A stretch of 64,000 nt of DNA from Heterostelium pallidum (lineage: Eukaryota), in the NCBI RefSeq assembly GCF_000004825.1, contig NW_008805086.1:901410-965409 (forward strand). Reading direction: 5' to 3'. The notes beneath the pieces are model-generated. The model saw nothing but the letters and a program-made list of their open reading frames with translations, did no database searches and was not told the DNA's origin. The position numbers were made by a program, and so were the translations under genes. This document shows positions 6,995 to 28,926 of the stretch, in pieces (the first letter of the stretch is position 1; every line of letters begins with the position of its first letter).

Positions 6995-9340
6995 TTAATA
7001 ATGTTGAGACTTTAATTTACTTTTGAGATCGGATAGCATTTCGTTGAGAGCATTATCATGACTATCAATATCGAATGATGTGAATTCAGTTTCATCATCT
7101 GTTTTAGTCGATGAAATTCCAGACGGAATTGATGGAATTAATGGACTTGATTTGTGTAGATCGAATTGATGATTGTTGTTGTTGTTATTGTGAGTATTCA
7201 TTTGGTTTGCATTTCTTGATTTTTCAGAGGGTTTGGTTTCCTCTAGGTCTAAAGATGATCGAGTTTTTTCACTTGGTTTTGTTTCACTGCTGCCTTCCGG
7301 TTTGTCAGTTTCAGTTGGCTTGTCTTTTGGTTTATCAGTTTCAGTTGGCTTATCGGTTTCAGTTGGCTTGTCTGCGGGTTTATCAGTTTCTGTTGGCTTG
7401 TCTGCGGGTTTATCGGTTTCAGTTGGCTTGTCTTTTGGTTTATCAGTTTCAGTAGGTTTATCAGTTGGCTTGTCTTTTGGTTTATCAGTTTCTGTTGGCT
7501 TATCAGTATCAGTTGGCTTGTCTGCGGGTTTATCAGTTTCTGTTGGCTTGTCTTTTGGTTTATCAGTTTCAGTTGGTTTGTCTTTTGGCTTATCAGTTTC
7601 TGTTGGCTTATCGGTTTCAGTTGGCTTGTCTTTTGGTTTATCAGTTTCAGTTGGCTTATCAGTATCAGTTGGCTTGTCTGCGGGTTTATCGGTTTCAGTT
7701 GGCTTGTCTTTTGGCTTATCAGTATCAGTGGGCTTGTCTTTTGGTTTATCAGTATCTGTTGGCTTGTCTTTTGGTTTATCAGTTTCAGTGGGCTTGTCTT
7801 TTGGTTTATCAGTTTCGAGTTGGCTTATCAGTTTCTGTTGGCTTATCAGTATCAGTTGGCTTGTCTTTTGGTTTATCAGTATCAGTGGGCTTATCAGTTT
7901 CTGTTGGTTGGTCTTTTGGTTTATCAGTTTCTGTTGGTTTGTCTTTTGGCTTATCAGTATCAGTTGGCTTGTCTTTTGGTTTATCAGTTTCTGTTGGCTT
8001 ATCAGTTTCTTTTGGTTTATCAGTTTCTGTTGGCTTGTCTTTTGGTTTATCAGTATCAGTTGGCTTCTCTTTTGGCTTATCTGTTTCGGTTGGTTTGTCT
8101 TTTGGTTTATCAGTATCTGTTGGCTTGTCTTTTGGCTTATCGGTTTCAGTTGGCTTGTCTTTTGGTTTATCAGTTTCTGTTGGCTTATCAGTATCAGTTG
8201 GCTTGTCTGCCGGTTTATCGGTTGGTTTGTCTTCTGGCTTACCAGTTGGCTTATCAGTTGGTTTATCAGTTGGTTTATCAGTTGATGGAGTTTGCGATGG
8301 AGTTTGCGAAGGAGTATGGGATGGAGTTTGCGAAGGAGTATGGGATGGAGTTTGGGATGGAGTTTGGGATGGAGTTTGGGATGGAGTTTGGGATGGAGTT
8401 TGGGATGGAGTTTGCGAAGGAGTTTGGGATGGAGTATGGGATGGAGTTTGCGAAGGAGTTTGGGATGGAGTTTTAGATGGAGTTTGAGATGGGGTTTGGG
8501 ATGGAGTCTGAGATGGAGTTTGAGATGGAGTTTGCGATGGAGTTTGCGAAGGAGTTTGAGATGGAGTTTGAGATGGAGTTTGAGATGGAGTTTGCGAAGG
8601 AGTTTGTGTTGGCGGCTCTGTAGGCAAACGTGATGGAGTATGAGTAGGTTTCTCTGTTGGTTTATCAGTAGGTTTTTCTGTTGGTTTGTGTGTTGGCTTA
8701 TGTGATGGTTTTTCTGTTGGTTTTGTGGTCGGATTATGTGGTTTATCTGTAGGTGGATTTATATCTGAGATAAATAGTATTAATAATCTAAAAATAGAGC
8801 CAAGTATTTCCATTTGTATATTTCACTTACCCACACATCTTGGTACATTAGGACAACACGATGTACCATGACAATTTCCAGGTGATGGTCCCCATTGACA
8901 AACCATTCCTTTCGCCTCACATTGGAGTGTACCACAGGTATCTCTTGGTGGTTCGAAATAGGTAAAGTTTCTCGAGGGTTTGCAAACACTCCAGAATTCG
9001 ATTACTTCGCCAGTGACTTCATTTCTACCACAAGAGTTTATATTTTCACAATTTCCAATGTTTCTGTTGACACAAAAATGAACTGTATTACCACAACAGC
9101 TTATAAATGGCATATATTGACATTTCGGATATAGTTTTGTACAAGTTTGTTCATCATTAATATTTTCACAATTACCTCCTGGAAATAATTTGAAAAAAAA
9201 ATAATGATTAGTAAAATGTTACATGGATACCTTTTAAATATTTTAAACATAAAATACAAACCATATTTTCTTAATCTAAAAGAGCTTACAAAATGAATAT
9301 AGATTATTAAAATTAATATAATATAGTTTATTAATTTCAT
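6995..9340 (-). CDS. secreted Cys-rich N-terminal domain + Thr/Pro/Lys-rich mucin-like tandem-repeat protein (5' exon tentative; internal frameshift near 7817)
   Basis: Candidate signal-peptide exon MKLINYIILILIIYIHF (9340-about 9290). Cys-rich exon 8831-about 9183 (18 Cys, ...CQWGPSPGNCHGTSCCPNVPRCV) ends at a GTAAGT donor, followed by a 66-nt intron 8765-8830. The last exon 6995-8764 encodes TDKPKDKPTE and PSQT repeats and a C-terminal tail ending at the stop codon (6995-6997). The minus-strand ORF is split by a +1 shift at a tcagtttcGagttgg unit. Confidence 0.55.
7230..8640 (-). repeat. coding tandem repeats: about 30-nt TDKPKDKPTE units (7230-8280) and 12-nt PSQT units (8290-8600)
   Basis: Periodic ttatcagtttcagttggcttgtcttttgg units and ggagtttgggatgg units are visible directly. 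All six frames stay open across them, which explains the long mirror-frame ORFs on the plus strand. Confidence 0.85.
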
Positions 9341-16530: not shown

Positions 16531-17071
16531 ATATTTATTTGTAAACAAATAAAAAATAAATTGTTAATGAAACAAATTTCTAAAGTATCAATTTAAATAT
16601 ATTAATCCAAATTATGATATACTTATTTGGTACCAAGATAATACAATGATGTGTATATAGTGTAGATCTTTTTTTTTTCTATTCAATATATTCTAGTTTT
16701 CTATCGTTTGTTGCAGTAGCTTTGTTATTTACTTCACATTGTATTCGATTTATTGATTAGTTTTACTTATTATTAGATTAGATTCCATTGAAACAATTTT
16801 TAAATTTAATAATCATGAATGTGATCAAAAAGGAACTTAAATCAAACATGAAAAGCAACTTGAAGACTGTAGTATTTTCATTTATTAATTTTGTTTGTGT
16901 ATCGGGAATATTGATGTCCAAGTACACTTCGACGGGGCAAGCACGAATCCTCAGCTCAACAACAATAAGACAAACAAATATAAAAGCAAAACAATTTAAG
17001 ATAAAATCAAAGCTAAATATATTATTTAATAAAATTTAAATATTTGATTTTATAATTAGTTGTTGTATACA

Positions 17072-17250
17072 CGGGAGGCAACCAGCATAGGGACGAGAGG
17101 AGACCAGCATAACTACGAGAGATAACTGGCATAACGACGAGAGGAAACCAGCATAATAACGAGAAGAGTCTGGATTAACGACGAGAGGAAACCGGCATAA
17201 TAACGAGTGGAGTCTGGCATAACGACGAGAGTAGACCGGCATAGTAATTG
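17072..17250 (+). repeat. tandem array of about 22-bp repeats (family A: ggcataacgacgagaggaaacc)
   Basis: About 8 direct copies with variants (ataactacgagag, ataataacgagaag). Confidence 0.85.
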
Positions 17251-17639
17251 AAGATACAAATCATATATGTAAAAAATGATTATTTTGAATTAAATATATA
17301 TTTTTTTATTAAAAACCAAAAAAAATAAAAAAATTAATAAATGTAATTATAATTGATCAAATCAATTTTTTTTAAAGTAAGTTAGAATACTACCACACAC
17401 ATATCAATAATATATGCTATGTTAAGAGAAGTGAGGTGATTTACAATAGATCAAGATTGCAAGAAGATTATAAAGAATTAAGAGAAACTAATTAAAAAAT
17501 AAATTTAAATCTTTTTATAGGTTGAATGGTTTCACTTCACTGTTATAATTAAATTAAATCAGTTGTTTCCGAATTAAGTTCTTAATTACTCAGACATCAA
17601 AAAAAATTATTAAAGATTTTATATAAACATTTAGACAAT

Positions 17640-18120
17640 AAAATACAGCTACCAACAGAACCACAACTGACAACAACCACAACATCAAATAATTCATCAA
17701 CACCTCCAAACTCACTCATTTCCAGAAATATTTCATAAAGTTGAGGTTGATGATGTTGTTGGATAAGCGATAGTGGAATGACATTTGCTACTTCTGCTCC
17801 TGGTCAAGTAATTCAACATTTATAAGTATTTGGATTCAACAAAATTACTATTTCAATAAAAATTTAAACTACCCTTATAATTATCTATTAATTTTATTTT
17901 ATCGATTTGTGAAACTGAAGGAGTAGTTGAGCAGATGGAAATTGAGAGTGGCGTGTTCATCGGTAACCTAGTTATGGAGTTGATGGTAATTGAGTTGTAG
18001 AGTTGATCGAAACTAAGATATGTAGTTGAGGTAAGTATCTACAGTATCTGAGTTGTGGAGTTGACGGAAACTCTGGCTTCGGGCAACTAAGTATGGCAAT
18101 TGAGTCATCAACTCAGTCCA
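17640..18120. repeat. left inverted-repeat core (reverse complement of 24123-24515)
   Basis: For example 17725-17840 (ttcataaagttgaggttgatgatgttgttggataagcgatagtggaatgacatttgctacttctgctcctggtcaagtaattcaacattta) matches the reverse complement of 24365-24480. The left arm also contains an extra internal tandem copy. Confidence 0.8.
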
Positions 18121-18475
18121 GTTACTCAGTTCGGTAACTAAGTCAGTCCGGTAACTAACTCAATCTGGTAACTCAGTCCGGTAACTCAGTCCGGTAACTA
18201 ACTCAATCAGGTAACTCAGTCAGGTAACTCAGTCCGGTAACTCAATCCGGTAACTCAGTCCGGTAACTGAGTCCGGTAACTGAGTCAGGTAACTGAGTCC
18301 GGTAACTAACTCAATCTGGTAACTCAGTCCGGCAACTCAGTCCGGTAACTAACTCAATCTGGTAACTGAGTCGGGTAACTAACTCAATCTGGTAACTCAA
18401 TCTGGTAACTGAGTCCGGTAACTAACTCAATCTGGTAACTCAGTCAGGTAACTCAGTCCAGCAACTAAGTGGAAT
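18121..18475 (+). repeat. tandem array of 13-17-bp repeats (family B: ggtaactcagtcc / ggtaactaactcaatct)
   Basis: More than 20 direct units are visible directly. Confidence 0.85.
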
Positions 18476-18719
18476 CAACTCTGTTAATAAAAGAAATAAT
18501 TAAAAAGAATTTGAAAGATATCAACTTTTTATTTAAAATTTGATTGATTGATATTGTTGTTTTAAGTTTTAATTTATGAGTGTGGGGTGTGTATTATGTT
18601 ATCAGCAAGGAAATAAGTAGTATTATTATTAATAAAAGTAGAAGTAGGTGAAGAAAACAATGTTGGTATTATTATTATTAGCTACATGTTTGTTATATAT
18701 TGGTTGATTGATTGACAAT

Positions 18720-19700
18720 GTTAACTAATTTTATGTTAATCTTCTCATTTATTTCTTTGGAGCGGTTGCAGCAGCTTCCTTCTCTTCATCCTTCTCCTTT
18801 TCGACTTCATCTACCAACTATTCGACTTCGGATTCCTTGAACAATTTAATTGGTTCATTTCATTTATTGATAGCAATTTCAATATTCTTATTTCCTGATT
18901 CTACAACCTATTTATTTGTTAATATTACAATAGTATTAATAATAATAGTTAGTCATAGTTGTTTACTATATTTATAGTAATAAATGAATAATATATTATT
19001 ACCTCAAGAAATGATCTAACAGACAATTTAATTGAAGCAGTATCACTCTCATCTGTAAAGTTCTTCTCTAAAAATTCACTGACAGTCTTTGAGTTACGTC
19101 CGATGGCGGCTGCCTGTTCCTTCAATGAACCGGGTGGATCTGTTTGAAAAAGTTTTGGTGTACCGTCTGAATCGAAACCGACAATCAATGTAGAAATACC
19201 GAATGTCTAACACCACCACTTTGTGTATCTCTATAACAATTGTTTAAAATTCATTAAATTAGTATCAATATTTGACTCGATCGCTATAATCTTTTTGTTT
19301 TGTTCAAAGTATATTTACTTGTTGAATTCCAGCGATATATTTAGAGATATTCTACAGATGGTACATCATCCAATGATAATCTATATGATTGACACTCAAC
19401 AAGAGCATATAATAAAATCATAAATAGATAATAAATATATAAAAATGTATAAATGTGTTAATGTTAATTAATAAGTTACTAATAAAGCTATAAATAATGA
19501 TGATAATGATGATTATAATTATTATGTTTCATAAATGATATTAAACTTACCTTATTATATCTATAAATATGAATAAATAGATCGATTGTTGCTTGAATTA
19601 CTTTAATTAAATAATCAATTATGTGTGGTTATCCCAGACCCTGGAAAGAAAAAAAAAAGGACGAACCCATTGAAATGGATCACTTGGAATAGCTTGATTG
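18720..19700 (-). pseudogene. proteasome subunit alpha type-7 (PSMA7/alpha4) pseudogene
   Basis: The 3' half still reads [63 protein letters not shown] | VESGNKNIEIAINK*NEPIKLFKESEVE*LVDEVEKEKDEEKEAAATAPKK. This is collinear with human PSMA7 but has an in-frame TGA and a TAG where Tyr is expected. Upstream there is an in-frame TAG plus a local frame slip (RYTKWWC*TFGIS versus RYTQSGGVRPFGIS), a 2-nt deletion in ...VEY(I)SKYIAGIQQ, and a heavily decayed 5' half (YNQAIPSDPFQWVR versus [20 protein letters not shown]). Intron positions with GTAATA/GTAAAT donors are still recognisable. Confidence 0.75.
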
Positions 19701-19869
19701 TAATATTGGAAAATAGAATAAAAAAACAATGTTGTCAGTTGTTAGTATTAATTAATGATAGAAACAAATAAATAAAGAACGAATACAAGAATAATTAAAA
19801 TTGTATTCGTTTATAAATTATTTAATAGACCTACAAAAAAAACCTAGAACTTCGTTAACCTGAATTTCA

Positions 19870-20330
19870 CTTTACATATAGTATACAAATATGATATTAA
19901 TAAATAAACAACATTGAAAATAAATAAATAATAAAAAATAAATTAATAATAATATATTACCTTTTCAACGATCCTTCGGCCGTGCCCACCCTGCCGCCCA
20001 TGCAACGACCAGTACCACCACCATATAGCCAAGACCATGACCAAAGAAACCAGACTCTTTTAAGATTGATCTACTATTTTATATATAATATACAAATATG
20101 ATATTAATATATAAAGAAAATTGTAAATAAAAAAAAATAATAAAAAAATAAATAATATATTACCTGTACAACGATCCTTCGATCGTTCCCACCCAGCCAC
20201 CCATGCATCGACCAGTACCAGCACCAGAACCACCAAACCCAGAACCTAGAATCCAGACATCTCTACCATTGATTACCTTGCCGACCCATCCTCCCAAAGT
20301 TCAAGAGACATCTAGCAATTACAATTCCAA
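19870..20330 (-). repeat. tandem duplication (about 190-bp unit, 2-3 copies) of a Gly-rich exon plus its flanking intron-like sequence
   Basis: Units: ...YGGGTGRCMGGRVGTAEGSLKR|gtaata and ...GSGFGGSGAGTGRCMGGWVGTIEGSLYR|gtaata. Between the copies, 3 of 6 substitutions are synonymous in the Gly frame, and all 6 are non-synonymous in the alternative Trp-rich frame. There is no start codon and no complete gene model. Confidence 0.3.
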
Positions 20331-20571
20331 TAACAGAGACCACCACTCCATCCTGTTATTATTATTATTTACTTTTTATTGCTTGGTATTCTAAATTGAT
20401 AGGTATTATTATTTGGTTTTGTTTTGTTTTTGATATTGTTAATAATGTTTAAAATGTAATTGGCAGTGTTGTCAATGTTAGTGTTGATTTTGATGATTTT
20501 GTCGTTTTTCTCTTTCCAACCAGTTGGTCTTCTAAATTGGAAGGTGTTGTGGTTTGGTTTTGATTTATTAT

Positions 20572-21345
20572 TTATTTTTTTATATAGTTGTGAATATAGT
20601 ATTTGATGTTATTAATGTAATCAATGTTAGCAATTACATTGTTGTTATTATTATTGTATTCTATTTTAATTTGATTTGTTGGAATTCTAAATTGATAAGT
20701 TGATTGATTTCCTGTTGATTTAGGGTTATTATTGATTTTGTTTCTCGAATTAAAATTGTCATTTTCGTTCTGATTGTTGTTGTTGTTGTTGTTGTTGTTT
20801 TTATTATCTTTTTTATTTTTAATTGTGGGTTGTTTAAATTGATATGTGTTTTTGTTGCCCTCTTTTTGACTAACTGTTTTTTGTTGCTGTTGCTGTTGTT
20901 GTTGTTGCTGTTGTTGCTGTTGTTGCTGTTGCTGTTGCTGTTGTTGCTTTTGTTCTCTTCTTATTCTTGATCTTTCTTTGGAAAAGTACAAAAGGAACAG
21001 ATTTCGATCTGACTCATCTTTAATCTGCAGTTTCTTTTGGTTGTAAACTGTTACCAAATCCAGTGATAAACTTGTGACTGGAAAGCTTTGGATAACTTCC
21101 TCCAGCGACTTATAATTAACTATATTATTATCTTGTTGTTGTTGTTGTTGTTTGGGTTGCTGTTTATCTTCGAATTCCTTCATTACTCGTACGAATTCAT
21201 GGATAAAGTAATATGAGAAACTCATTCGATCTTCTTCAACTTCGAGCTCAGCTTTCTTTTCGAAATAAATACAAACTAATTCCCACGAATAGCTGGTAAT
21301 TGGAAAATTATCTATTTGATATTTAAGTTGTTGTGACATATGCAT
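20572..21345 (-). CDS. Q/N-rich hypothetical protein with a repeated xTYQF(K/R)xPT motif; probably frame-disrupted at its 3' end
   Basis: 257-aa ORF from a real ATG. It has an internal 40-aa duplication (DNFPITSYSWELVCIYFEKKAELEVEEDR / QSFPVTSLSLDLVTVYNQKKLQIKDESDR), a poly-Q tract, and the motifs KNTYQFKQPT and STYQFRIPTN. Two further motif copies (NTFQFRRPTGW, NNNTYQFRIPSNKK*) continue downstream to about 20400, but in a different frame after an A-rich tract at about 20572. Confidence 0.4.
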   Translation of the reverse strand: MHMSQQLKYQIDNFPITSYSWELVCIYFEKKAELEVEEDRMSFSYYFIHEFVRVMKEFEDKQQPKQQQQQQDNNIVNYKSLEEVIQSFPVTSLSLDLVTVYNQKKLQIKDESDRNLFLLYFSKERSRIRREQKQQQQQQQQQQQQQQQQQQQQQQKTVSQKEGNKNTYQFKQPTIKNKKDNKNNNNNNNNNQNENDNFNSRNKINNNPKSTGNQSTYQFRIPTNQIKIEYNNNNNNVIANIDYINNIKYYIHNYIKK

Positions 21346-23484: not shown

Positions 23485-24122
23485 ATGCCAGTTGCCTCCT
23501 TACTATGAGTGATGCCTCGTTGCTATGATGGTTACCTCTCATTACCATGCCAGTTGCCTCTCGTCGTTATGCCAGTCTCCTCTCGTAGTTATGCCGGTTT
23601 CCTCTTGTAGTTATGCCAGCTTCCTCTCGTCGTTATGCCCGTCTCTTCTCGTTTCCTCTCGTTACTGTGCCCGTTTCCTCTCGTAGTTATGCCGGTTACC
23701 TCTCGTAGTTATGCCGGTTACCTCGTTACTATGCCGGTTACCTCTCGTTACTATGCCGGTTTCCTCTCGTCATTATGCCTGTTTCCTCTCGTCATTATGC
23801 CTGTCTCCTCTCGTAGTTATACCGGTTACCTCTCATTACCATGCCAGTTTCCTCTCGTAGTTATGCCTGTCTCCTCTAGTCGATATGCCAGTTGCCTCTC
23901 GTAGTTATGCCGGTTTCTTCTCGTTACTATGCCGGTTTCCTCTCGTAGTTATGCCTGTCTCCTCTCGTAGTTATGCTGGTTTCCTCTCGTAGTTATACCG
24001 GTTTCCTCTCGTAGTTATGCCGGTTTCCTCTCTTTGTTATGCCGGTTGTCTCTCGTAGTTATGCCAGTCTCCTCTCGTCACTCTGCGGGTTGCCTCTCGT
24101 CACTATGCCGGTTTCCTCTCTT
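23485..24122 (+). repeat. tandem array (about 29 copies) of the 22-bp family-A repeat in inverted orientation (atgccggtttcctctcgtagtt)
   Basis: Visible directly. It is the reverse complement of the 17072-17250 unit. Confidence 0.9.
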
Positions 24123-24592
24123 TAGTTGACTCAGTTAACTCAATTGCCGTACTTAGTTGCCAGAATCCAGAGTTTCAATCAACTCCACAACTCGGATGCT
24201 GTTGATAGATACCTCGACTCCATAACTCAGTTACCAATGAACACGTCACTCTCAATTTCGATCTGCTCGACTACTCCTTTACCATCAGTTTCACATTTTG
24301 ATAAAATAAAATCAAAAGATATAATTAAAAAGGTAGTTTAAATTTTTATTGAAATAGTAATTTTGTTGAATCCAAACACTCATAAATGTTGAATTACTTG
24401 ACCAGGAGCAAAAGTAGCAAATGTCATTCTACTACCACTAATCCAACAACATCATCAACCTCAACTTTATGAAACATTTGGGGAAATGAGTGGGTTTGGA
24501 GGTGTTGATGAATTATTAGTTTCTCGTTACTATGCCGGTTGACTCTCGTAGTTATGTCGGTGTTATGCCGGTTTCCTCTAGTGGTTATGCCA
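24123..24592. repeat. right inverted-repeat core (24123-24515) plus a short family-A array (24520-24592)
   Basis: See the left core. The terminal segment is tttctcgttactatgccggttgactctcgtagttatgtcggtgttatgccggtttcctctagtggttatgcc. Confidence 0.8.
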
Positions 24593-24721
24593 AAAATTAA
24601 GTTTGTGTGAAGTTCACACAATCAAAAAAGGGGATTTAAAATTTTATATTATTTTAACATAATAAAAAAAATCATTTAATTTACTTTATTAATTAAAATC
24701 AATAATTACAATTATATAAAT

Positions 24722-26139: not shown

Positions 26140-28926
<2,787 letters not shown>

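What the first reader, a model, noticed from the sequence alone, without database searches (positions are those of the whole stretch)
18720..19700. Processed-looking decay of a proteasome alpha-7 gene copy inside the repeat-bounded segment
The 3' half is still about 60 percent identical at protein level to PSMA7 and intron positions are retained, so this is a DNA-level duplicate and not a retrocopy. It carries at least three in-frame stops (two TAG, one TGA), a 2-nt deletion and a local frame slip. Its 5' half has drifted towards AT-rich sequence that no longer encodes recognisable protein.

An intact psmA7 must exist elsewhere, because the protein is essential. The gradient of decay (3' conserved, 5' destroyed) is unusual.
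Basis: partly seen in the sequence, partly recalled or inferred. Interest (0 to 1): 0.55.

Follow-up and report, generated by a model that had tools for sequence, protein, structure and literature searches.

The report
Truncated dead copy of psmA7
This is an ordinary dead partial copy (exons 2-4 only) of the proteasome alpha-7 gene in the social amoeba Heterostelium album; its "destroyed" front half was never recognisably there, because the similarity stops exactly at an exon boundary.

Summary
The window is Heterostelium album (Polysphondylium pallidum) PN500. On the minus strand, 19406-18749, lies a real psmA7 pseudogene. It holds exon 2 (19406-19319), an 88-nt GT..AG intron, exon 3 (19230-19003), a 95-nt GT..AG intron and exon 4 with the natural TAA stop (18907-18749).

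After repairing the indels it is 89% identical to the annotated PN500 psmA7 (EFA77609.1), which sits on another contig, and it shares species-specific residues with it.

Lesions:
- two 2-nt deletions and one 1-nt deletion;
- one complex indel (net -3 nt);
- a TGA and a TAG by substitution;
- a TAA and a TAG exposed by the frame slips.

All three junctions coincide with intron positions in orthologous dictyostelid psmA7 genes, so it is a DNA-level copy, not a retrocopy.

Homology starts exactly at the exon-2 boundary (K89|A90). Exon 1 is undetectable anywhere in the 64 kb, and GC of the retained exons is normal. The copy is 5'-truncated in or near intron 1.

It lies inside a 7.5-kb segment with foldback-like inverted arms, but I found no target-site duplication, transposase, second copy or other captured fragment. 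Parental DNA was unreachable, so the duplication could not be dated from synonymous sites. Ordinary; low interest.

The parts
19319..19406 (-). Exon 2 remnant of psmA7 (A90..Q119). It is 88 nt instead of 90: a 2-nt deletion between 19347 and 19346 (codon I110) exposes a TAA at 19343-19341.
   Evidence: Orthologue exon DNA hits 19400-19319 at E = 1e-20.
19231..19318 (-). Retained intron of 88 nt (GTAAAT..TATAG, 22% GC) at Q119|R120.
   Evidence: The same position holds an intron in Acytostelium subglobosum (91 nt) and Polysphondylium violaceum (99 nt) psmA7.
19003..19230 (-). Exon 3 remnant (R120..E197). Lesions: a 2-nt deletion near 19223/19222; a 1-nt deletion near 19205/19204 (codon P129), with a TAG at 19209-19207 in the slipped frame between them; a complex indel at 19125-19114 (SFSSWK to SLKEQ, net -3 nt).
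18908..19002 (-). Retained intron of 95 nt (GTAATA..AATAG, 14% GC) at E197|V198.
   Evidence: The same position holds an 84-nt intron in Cavenderia fasciculata psmA7.
18749..18907 (-). Exon 4 remnant (V198 to the natural stop TAA at 18751-18749). It carries a TGA at 18862-18860 (R213) and a TAG at 18820-18818 (a Q/K codon). The acidic tail EVEKEKDEEKE..APKK is kept in the ancestral frame.
19407..19556 (-). AT-rich sequence (13% GC) abutting exon 2, with no AG acceptor (TAT|GCT). It is either the remains of intron 1 or unrelated DNA. The 5' breakpoint of the duplication lies somewhere here.
   Evidence: Inference: it cannot be resolved without the parental DNA.
17070..18470 (.). Context, left foldback-like arm: 22-mer array (17070-17247), a 440-nt spacer, unique arm U (17688-18105), then a 13-mer array (18110-18470) that ends 280 nt from the relic's stop codon.
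23516..24594 (.). Context, right foldback-like arm: 22-mer array (23516-24120), inverted copy U' (24138-24517; 79% over 426 nt, best 202 nt at 93%), then three more 22-mers (24521-24594).

Best explanation
A non-functional, unprocessed, 5'-truncated pseudogene of the proteasome alpha-7 gene (psmA7).

Inferred history:
1. A DNA-level ectopic duplication within the Heterostelium lineage copied about 0.7-1 kb of the parental gene, from within or next to intron 1 through the stop codon.
2. The copy landed in a gene-poor, repeat-rich stretch of another chromosome region.
3. It lacked the promoter, the start codon and exon 1 (residues 1-89, including the alpha-subunit N-terminal signature), so it was dead on arrival.
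4. It has since accumulated neutral lesions. From 8-12 amino-acid-changing substitutions in about 140 codons I estimate roughly 2.5-4% point divergence on its own branch, plus four small indels.

Shown: identity of the sequence, anatomy, lesions, retained introns at orthologous positions, absence of exon 1, and a parent on another contig. Inferred: that it was truncated at birth rather than by a later deletion, the duplication mechanism, and the age.
For: - Organism: two window proteins match Heterostelium album PN500 exactly, on a 1,029,409-bp contig.
- Parent: EFA77609.1 lies on a 1,641,145-bp contig.
- Similarity: the relic is 89% identical to it over 131 residues and shares PN500-specific residues. 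Eight of the 11 substitutions, and two of the three indel-disrupted codons, fall at sites invariant in eight dictyostelids.
- Pfam PF00227 matches only profile positions 66-188 of 189, and PF10584 is absent.
- Exon and intron coordinates, with canonical GT..AG ends.
- Orthologue introns lie at K89|A90 (Cavenderia, Tieghemostelium, Acytostelium), Q119|R120 (Acytostelium, P. violaceum) and E197|V198 (Cavenderia). The orthologue exon coordinates were validated by exact translation.
- Exon 1 is undetectable: local alignment equals shuffled noise (25 against 23.4 +/- 2.8), while the exon 2-4 control scores 284. No whole-window hit is significant, while exons 2-4 of four orthologues hit at E = 1e-12 to 1e-61.
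- Exon GC is 0.37, against 0.34-0.35 in the AT-rich orthologues.
- No gene model or called ORF corresponds to the relic.
Against: - The parental genomic DNA could not be retrieved, because the PN500 assembly is absent from the gene-position index. As a result the exact breakpoint, the presence of the same introns in the PN500 parent itself, and synonymous divergence are all untested.
- A remnant of exon 1 shorter than about 30 nt, or a later deletion of exon 1 from an originally complete copy, cannot be excluded.
- Transcription was not tested.
Confidence: 0.85

Rival explanations
1. One reading: a full-length DNA duplicate whose 5' half decayed much faster and drifted to AT-rich sequence, giving a gradient of decay.
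For: The sequence upstream of 19406 is very AT-rich, at 13% GC. A short peptide at about 19700-19650 (YYNQAIPSDPFQWV) loosely recalls [19 protein letters not shown].
Against: - The transition is a step, not a gradient: about 89% identity up to residue 90, then nothing.
- The step falls exactly on a conserved intron site.
- Orthologue exon-1 DNA and protein give only noise-level matches upstream and window-wide.
- The retained exons show no AT drift.
- The loose peptide was not reported by tblastn even at E = 1000, and it is not collinear with the only other weak hit (20291-20244, E = 0.5).
Confidence: 0.05
2. Same pseudogene, but delivered by a mobile element. The 7.5-kb segment 17070-24594 would be a non-autonomous foldback-like or Pack-type DNA transposon that captured exons 2-4 of psmA7 (transduplication).
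For: - Long inverted arms are built largely of short tandem repeats, with unequal arm lengths: U and U' are 79% identical over 426 nt, and 22-mer arrays lie on both sides.
- The relic lies only 280 nt from the inner end of the left arm.
- The interior has no annotated or conserved gene.
Against: - Flank similarity is no better than 38% of random AT-rich flank pairs, so there is no target-site duplication.
- No transposase, RT or integrase domain was found in the ten least trivial stop-free stretches of at least 45 aa.
- There is no second copy of the arms in the 64 kb.
- No other identifiable captured host fragment was found.
- Genome-wide copy number could not be tested.
Confidence: 0.12
3. 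The relic is functional: an exon donor in a chimeric transcript with the upstream exon-like blocks, or a source of antisense or small RNA regulating psmA7.
For: Exon-like blocks with donor sites lie upstream on the same strand (20300-20165, 20040-19960), and there is a polypyrimidine-CAG acceptor at 19641. The relic is 89% identical to its parent at protein level, so it may be similar enough at nucleotide level for RNA-RNA pairing.
Against: - No open frame is longer than 85 codons.
- Substitutions hit invariant residues.
- The exon-2 acceptor AG is missing.
- No protein in 5.8 billion sequences matches the neighbouring exons.
- There is no Rfam hit in the window.
- No expression data were available.
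Confidence: 0.03
4. Sequencing or assembly artefact: a low-quality read of the true psmA7 gene collapsed into the wrong place.
For: The annotated parent itself seems to carry a 1-nt frameshift, so the assembly is not error-free.
Against: - There are eight or more independent point differences, four indels and a missing exon.
- The flanks are unique and sit inside a 1-Mb contig.
- Neighbouring genes translate exactly to the database proteins.
Confidence: 0.02

Closest known systems
Unprocessed (duplicated) pseudogenes, specifically truncated partial-gene duplicates
   Same: A DNA-level copy of a single-copy essential gene. Introns are retained. The promoter and first exon are missing. It has frameshifts and premature stops, substitutions at otherwise invariant residues, and a functional parent elsewhere in the same genome.
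   Different: Nothing substantive. The only particular feature is the placement inside a foldback-like repeat-bounded segment.
Proteasome subunit alpha type-7 (PSMA7 / alpha4; Dictyostelium psmA7; PN500 EFA77609.1)
   Same: 89% amino-acid identity to the PN500 protein over residues 90-221. It has the same C-terminal acidic tail as the Cavenderia and Acytostelium orthologues, and the same intron positions as the orthologues.
   Different: It lacks residues 1-89, including the PF10584 alpha-subunit N-terminal signature. It is not translatable, so it is not a member of the functional family.
Processed pseudogenes (retrocopies)
   Same: A dispersed, promoter-less, dead copy on another contig.
   Different: Two spliceosomal introns are retained and there is no poly(A) tract after the stop, so this class is excluded.
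Foldback elements and Pack-MULE/CACTA-type gene-fragment capture (comparison from general knowledge, not tested for membership)
   Same: The host-gene fragment lies between long inverted arms made largely of short tandem repeats of unequal length.
   Different: No target-site duplication, no transposase, no evidence of multiple copies, and only one identifiable host fragment.

Membership tests
Proteasome alpha subunit 7 (functional gene family) | Proteasome domain PF00227 | tested here: met
   E = 1.5e-24, but only profile positions 66-188 of 189 are matched.
Proteasome alpha subunit 7 (functional gene family) | Alpha-subunit N-terminal signature PF10584, carried on exon 1 | tested here: not met
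   Absent from the repaired translation. Exon 1 is undetectable in the window.
Proteasome alpha subunit 7 (functional gene family) | Uninterrupted reading frame after splicing | tested here: not met
   Exon lengths sum to 475 nt, which is not a multiple of 3. There are two substitution stops and three frameshifting deletions.
Proteasome alpha subunit 7 (functional gene family) | Closest to alpha-7 rather than other alpha subunits | tested here: met
   All named hits among the 120 listed are named alpha type 7, PSMA7, 20S alpha 4 or 'hypothetical protein'. The best is PN500 psmA7.
Unprocessed (duplicated) pseudogene | A parent gene elsewhere in the same genome | tested here: met
   EFA77609.1 is on a 1,641,145-bp contig and the window is on a 1,029,409-bp contig.
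Unprocessed (duplicated) pseudogene | Introns retained at the gene's own positions | tested here: met
   Both retained introns and the 5' boundary coincide with introns in orthologous genes. The PN500 parent's own introns could not be read.
Unprocessed (duplicated) pseudogene | Disabling lesions and relaxed constraint | tested here: met
   See the lesion table. Eight of the 11 substitutions fall at sites invariant in eight dictyostelids.
Processed pseudogene (retrocopy) | Intronless, with a poly(A) remnant | tested here: not met
   Two GT..AG introns are present and there is no A-tract after the TAA.
DNA transposon with captured gene fragment (Pack-type or foldback-like) | Terminal inverted repeats | tested here: inconclusive
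   Long inverted arms exist, but their ends are fuzzy tandem arrays.
DNA transposon with captured gene fragment (Pack-type or foldback-like) | Target-site duplication | tested here: not met
   The flank alignment score of 7 is reached by 38% of random AT-rich 30-mer pairs.
DNA transposon with captured gene fragment (Pack-type or foldback-like) | Multiple copies in the genome, or insertion polymorphism | not testable with these tools
   There is no other copy within the 64 kb, and the PN500 genome is not searchable here.
DNA transposon with captured gene fragment (Pack-type or foldback-like) | A transposase, or relation to an autonomous element | tested here: not met
   No Pfam transposase, RT or integrase in the stop-free stretches scanned.
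RIP-type repeat-induced mutation | Excess of C-to-T / G-to-A transitions and AT enrichment of the copy | tested here: not met
   Most inferred changes are transversions (G>T, A>T, T>A, G>C), and exon GC is unchanged.

The most novel reading that the evidence does not exclude
The 7.5-kb segment 17070-24594 is a previously undescribed non-autonomous foldback-like DNA element of Heterostelium that acquired exons 2-4 of an essential housekeeping gene. To my knowledge that would be the first case of transposon-mediated gene-fragment capture reported in Dictyostelia.
Probability: 0.1. Interest if true: 0.4.

Novelty: new member of a known kind. Interest (0 to 1): 0.12.

Why it matters
Its value is mostly for annotation. 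It is an apparently unannotated pseudogene that could attract mis-mapped psmA7 reads or produce a spurious gene model.

It has two small side uses:
- The relic preserves the ancestral C-terminal reading frame, which exposes a probable 1-nt error or real truncation in the annotated PN500 psmA7 (EFA77609.1).
- Together with the orthologues, it indicates that the ancestral dictyostelid psmA7 had three introns that were lost differentially between lineages.

It opens no new biological question.

Tried and rejected
1. Alternative genetic code. Rejected: the natural stop is TAA, the internal stops are TGA and TAG, frameshifts are present, and neighbouring genes translate exactly with the standard code.

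2. Retrieving the parental locus DNA. Exact-protein lookups for P0003 and for two window proteins all failed, because the PN500 assembly is not in the gene-position index. Dating from synonymous sites was therefore impossible.

3. Remnants of exon 1. I tried tblastn with word size 2 up to E = 1000, Smith-Waterman alignment with orthologue exon-1 DNA against shuffles, and a whole-window blastn and tblastn. All gave noise only. The weak hit GWVGKVINGRDVWILG (20291-20244, E = 0.5) and my by-eye match YYNQAIPSDPFQWV (about 19700) are not collinear and not significant.

4. The segment as a mosaic of captured gene fragments. The neighbouring ORF and the Gly-rich and TYQF exon-like blocks have no homologue among 5.8 billion proteins and no Pfam family.

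5. Transposon hallmarks. No target-site duplication, no transposase, and no tRNA gene as a target.

6. RIP-like mutation. Rejected by the substitution spectrum and the GC content.

7. Six-frame Pfam scan by DNA reference.

8. Literature. I found nothing specific to this locus.

Full report
**Source of the window.** Two ORFs of the window are exact, full-length matches to Heterostelium album (formerly Polysphondylium pallidum) PN500 proteins. They are fibrillarin EFA82831.1 and PPL_04528 (EFA82833.1), both on a contig of 1,029,409 bp. Base composition, poly-Q/poly-N tracts and short AT-rich introns fit a dictyostelid.

**The observation.**
- Translating the minus strand of 18650-19800 shows long PSMA7-like peptides.
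- A database search with the conceptual translation returns proteasome alpha-7 proteins only. The best identity by far, 90%, is to the annotated PN500 psmA7 (P0003). Other dictyostelids score 70-81%.
- P0003 is EFA77609.1 / XP_020429737.1 and lies on a different contig of 1,641,145 bp. The predicted second locus therefore exists.
- Pfam confirms the proteasome domain (PF00227, E = 1.5e-24). Only profile positions 66-188 of 189 are matched, and the alpha-subunit N-terminal signature PF10584 is absent.

**Anatomy, minus strand.**
- Exon 2: 19406-19319 (A90..Q119).
- Intron: 19318-19231 (88 nt, GTAAAT..TATAG, 22% GC).
- Exon 3: 19230-19003 (R120..E197).
- Intron: 19002-18908 (95 nt, GTAATA..AATAG, 14% GC).
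- Exon 4: 18907-18752, followed by the natural TAA at 18751-18749.

**Lesions.**
- A 2-nt deletion between 19347 and 19346 (codon I110) exposes a TAA at 19343-19341.
- A second 2-nt deletion near 19223 and a 1-nt deletion near 19205 (codon P129) bracket a slipped frame that reads KWWC* (TAG at 19209-19207).
- A complex indel at 19125-19114 changes SFSSWK to SLKEQ. Compared with orthologue DNA, the simplest reading is a 9-nt deletion plus a 6-nt insertion (inference).
- TGA at 18862-18860 replaces R213 (AGA in Cavenderia and P. violaceum, AGG in Acytostelium).
- TAG at 18820-18818 replaces a codon that P0003's shifted frame implies is CAG.
- The three exons sum to 475 nt, so no single frame is open.

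**Relationship to the parent.**
- After repairing the three deletions, the relic is 117/131 (89%) identical to P0003.
- It shares PN500-specific residues ([33 protein letters not shown]). The copy therefore arose within the Heterostelium lineage from that species' own gene.
- Eight of its 11 amino-acid substitutions, and two of the three indel-disrupted codons, hit positions invariant in eight dictyostelid orthologues, which indicates relaxed constraint.
- The inferred nucleotide changes are mostly transversions, and exon GC (0.37) equals that of the AT-rich orthologues (0.34-0.35). There is no RIP-like or AT-drift signature in the retained part.
- From 8-12 amino-acid-changing substitutions in about 140 codons I estimate very roughly 2.5-4% neutral divergence on the relic's branch. 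This is an inference and assumes the parent protein is unchanged.

**Introns.**
- The PN500 assembly is not in the gene-position index, so the parental DNA could not be read. I retrieved four orthologous psmA7 loci instead: Tieghemostelium lacteum (L001), Cavenderia fasciculata (L003), Acytostelium subglobosum (L004) and Polysphondylium violaceum (L005).
- I mapped their exons, and each spliced CDS translates exactly to the database protein.
- Introns occur at K89|A90 (Cavenderia, Tieghemostelium, Acytostelium), Q119|R120 (Acytostelium, P. violaceum) and E197|V198 (Cavenderia).
- The relic's two introns sit at exactly the last two positions and have similar lengths. The claim "DNA-level duplicate, not a retrocopy" is therefore supported. 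There is also no poly(A) tract after the stop.

**The "destroyed 5' half".**
- The relic's recognisable homology begins at A90, which is exactly the first of those conserved intron sites.
- In all four orthologues residues 1-89 lie upstream of that site; in the three with the K89|A90 intron they form one exon of 264-267 nt.
- Searching 1 kb upstream with orthologue exon-1 DNA gives local scores of 20-25, against 23-24 +/- 3 for shuffles. The exon 2-4 control scores 284.
- tblastn with P0003 at word size 2 and E up to 1000 finds nothing collinear.
- Searching the whole window on both strands with exon-1 protein and four exon-1 DNAs gives only chance-level hits, whereas exons 2-4 of all four orthologues hit the relic at E = 1e-12 to 1e-61.
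- A copy that is 89% identical over 160 codons cannot have lost all trace of the adjacent 89 codons by the same slow drift. The step at an exon boundary instead indicates a 5'-truncated partial duplication, with its breakpoint in or next to intron 1 (somewhere in 19407-19556), or less likely a later deletion.
- The AT-rich DNA upstream is intron or spacer-like (13% GC) and lacks the AG acceptor (TAT|GCT).
- The "unusual gradient" is therefore not real.

**Context.**
- The relic lies inside a 7.5-kb segment with foldback-like arms.
  - Left arm: 22-mer array 17070-17247, a 440-nt spacer, unique arm U at 17688-18105, then a 13-mer array at 18110-18470.
  - Right arm: 22-mer array 23516-24120, U' at 24138-24517, then three 22-mers at 24521-24594.
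  - U and U' are 79% identical over 426 nt, with a best stretch of 202 nt at 93%.
- I tested the idea that this is a transposon that captured the fragment.
  - Target-site duplication: none above chance, since 38% of random flank pairs score as well.
  - Transposase, RT or integrase: no Pfam hit in the ten least trivial stop-free stretches of at least 45 aa.
  - Second copy of the arms: none in the window.
  - tRNA or Rfam hits: none.
  - Other exon-like pieces upstream of the relic: no homologue among 5.8 billion proteins, so there is no mosaic of captured genes. These pieces are the ORF at 21345-20572, the TYQF repeats and the duplicated Gly-rich mini-exons.
- Capture remains possible but unsupported. 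Genome-wide copy number could not be tested.

**A side observation.** The annotated parent (230 aa) ends KLLKGIRSRTVGR*. That is the +1-frame reading of the sequence the relic still carries in the ancestral frame (KLFKESEVE*LVDEVEKEKDEEKEAAATAPKK), and the ancestral frame matches Cavenderia and Acytostelium. This implies one extra G (AAGGGAATCC against AAGGAATCC) in the parent as assembled. It is either an assembly error or a real truncation of the acidic tail.

**Verdict.** This is a genuine but ordinary truncated, unprocessed pseudogene. I found no literature specific to this locus. Interest is low.

Noticed in passing
window 18845-18810 (minus strand), compared with P0003 (EFA77609.1): The annotated 'intact' PN500 psmA7 is 230 aa and ends in a +1-frame read-through (KLLKGIRSRTVGR*). 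The relic and the orthologues keep the ancestral acidic tail in frame. This implies one extra G in the parent as assembled, which is either an assembly error or a real C-terminal truncation.
   Followed up: partly
window 17070-18470 and 23516-24594: Foldback-like inverted arms made of a 22-mer array, a unique arm of about 420 nt (79-93% identical between sides) and inner arrays (a 13-mer on the left, a 22-mer on the right). They bound about 5 kb that holds no conserved gene. There is no target-site duplication, no transposase and no other copy in the window.
   Followed up: partly
window 19871-20070 and 20078-20273 (minus strand): A tandem duplication of a unit of about 205 bp (85% identical over 153 nt). 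Each unit has a Gly-rich exon-like block (..GTGRCMGG[WR]VGT.EGSL..) ending in an AG|GTAATA donor. A polypyrimidine-CAG acceptor at 19641 could close a short terminal exon (..VWDNHT*). No homologue was found.
   Followed up: partly
window 20372-21345 (minus strand): An orphan ORF of 257 aa with an internal duplication (FP[IV]TS.S..LV.[IV]Y..K), a poly-Q tract and four N.T[YF]QF[KR].P[TS] motifs. It has no Pfam family, and no homologue or gene model among 5.8 billion proteins.
   Followed up: yes
loci L001, L003, L004, L005 (orthologous psmA7 genes): The three psmA7 intron positions (K89|A90, Q119|R120, E197|V198) are distributed patchily among dictyostelid genera. Each species keeps one or two of them, which implies a three-intron ancestor and lineage-specific intron losses.
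   Followed up: partly
window 7233-8813: A very long coding tandem-repeat region (periods of 12, 30, 48 and 60 nt). On the minus strand it encodes a PSQT / TDKPKDKPTE repeat protein of at least 334 aa.
   Followed up: no
window 27010-28926: An ORF of 638 aa with a poly-Q tract of about 45 residues, a long (ER/EK)n tract encoded by an AAAGAG-type array (28321-28701), and a chromodomain-like C-terminus.
   Followed up: no
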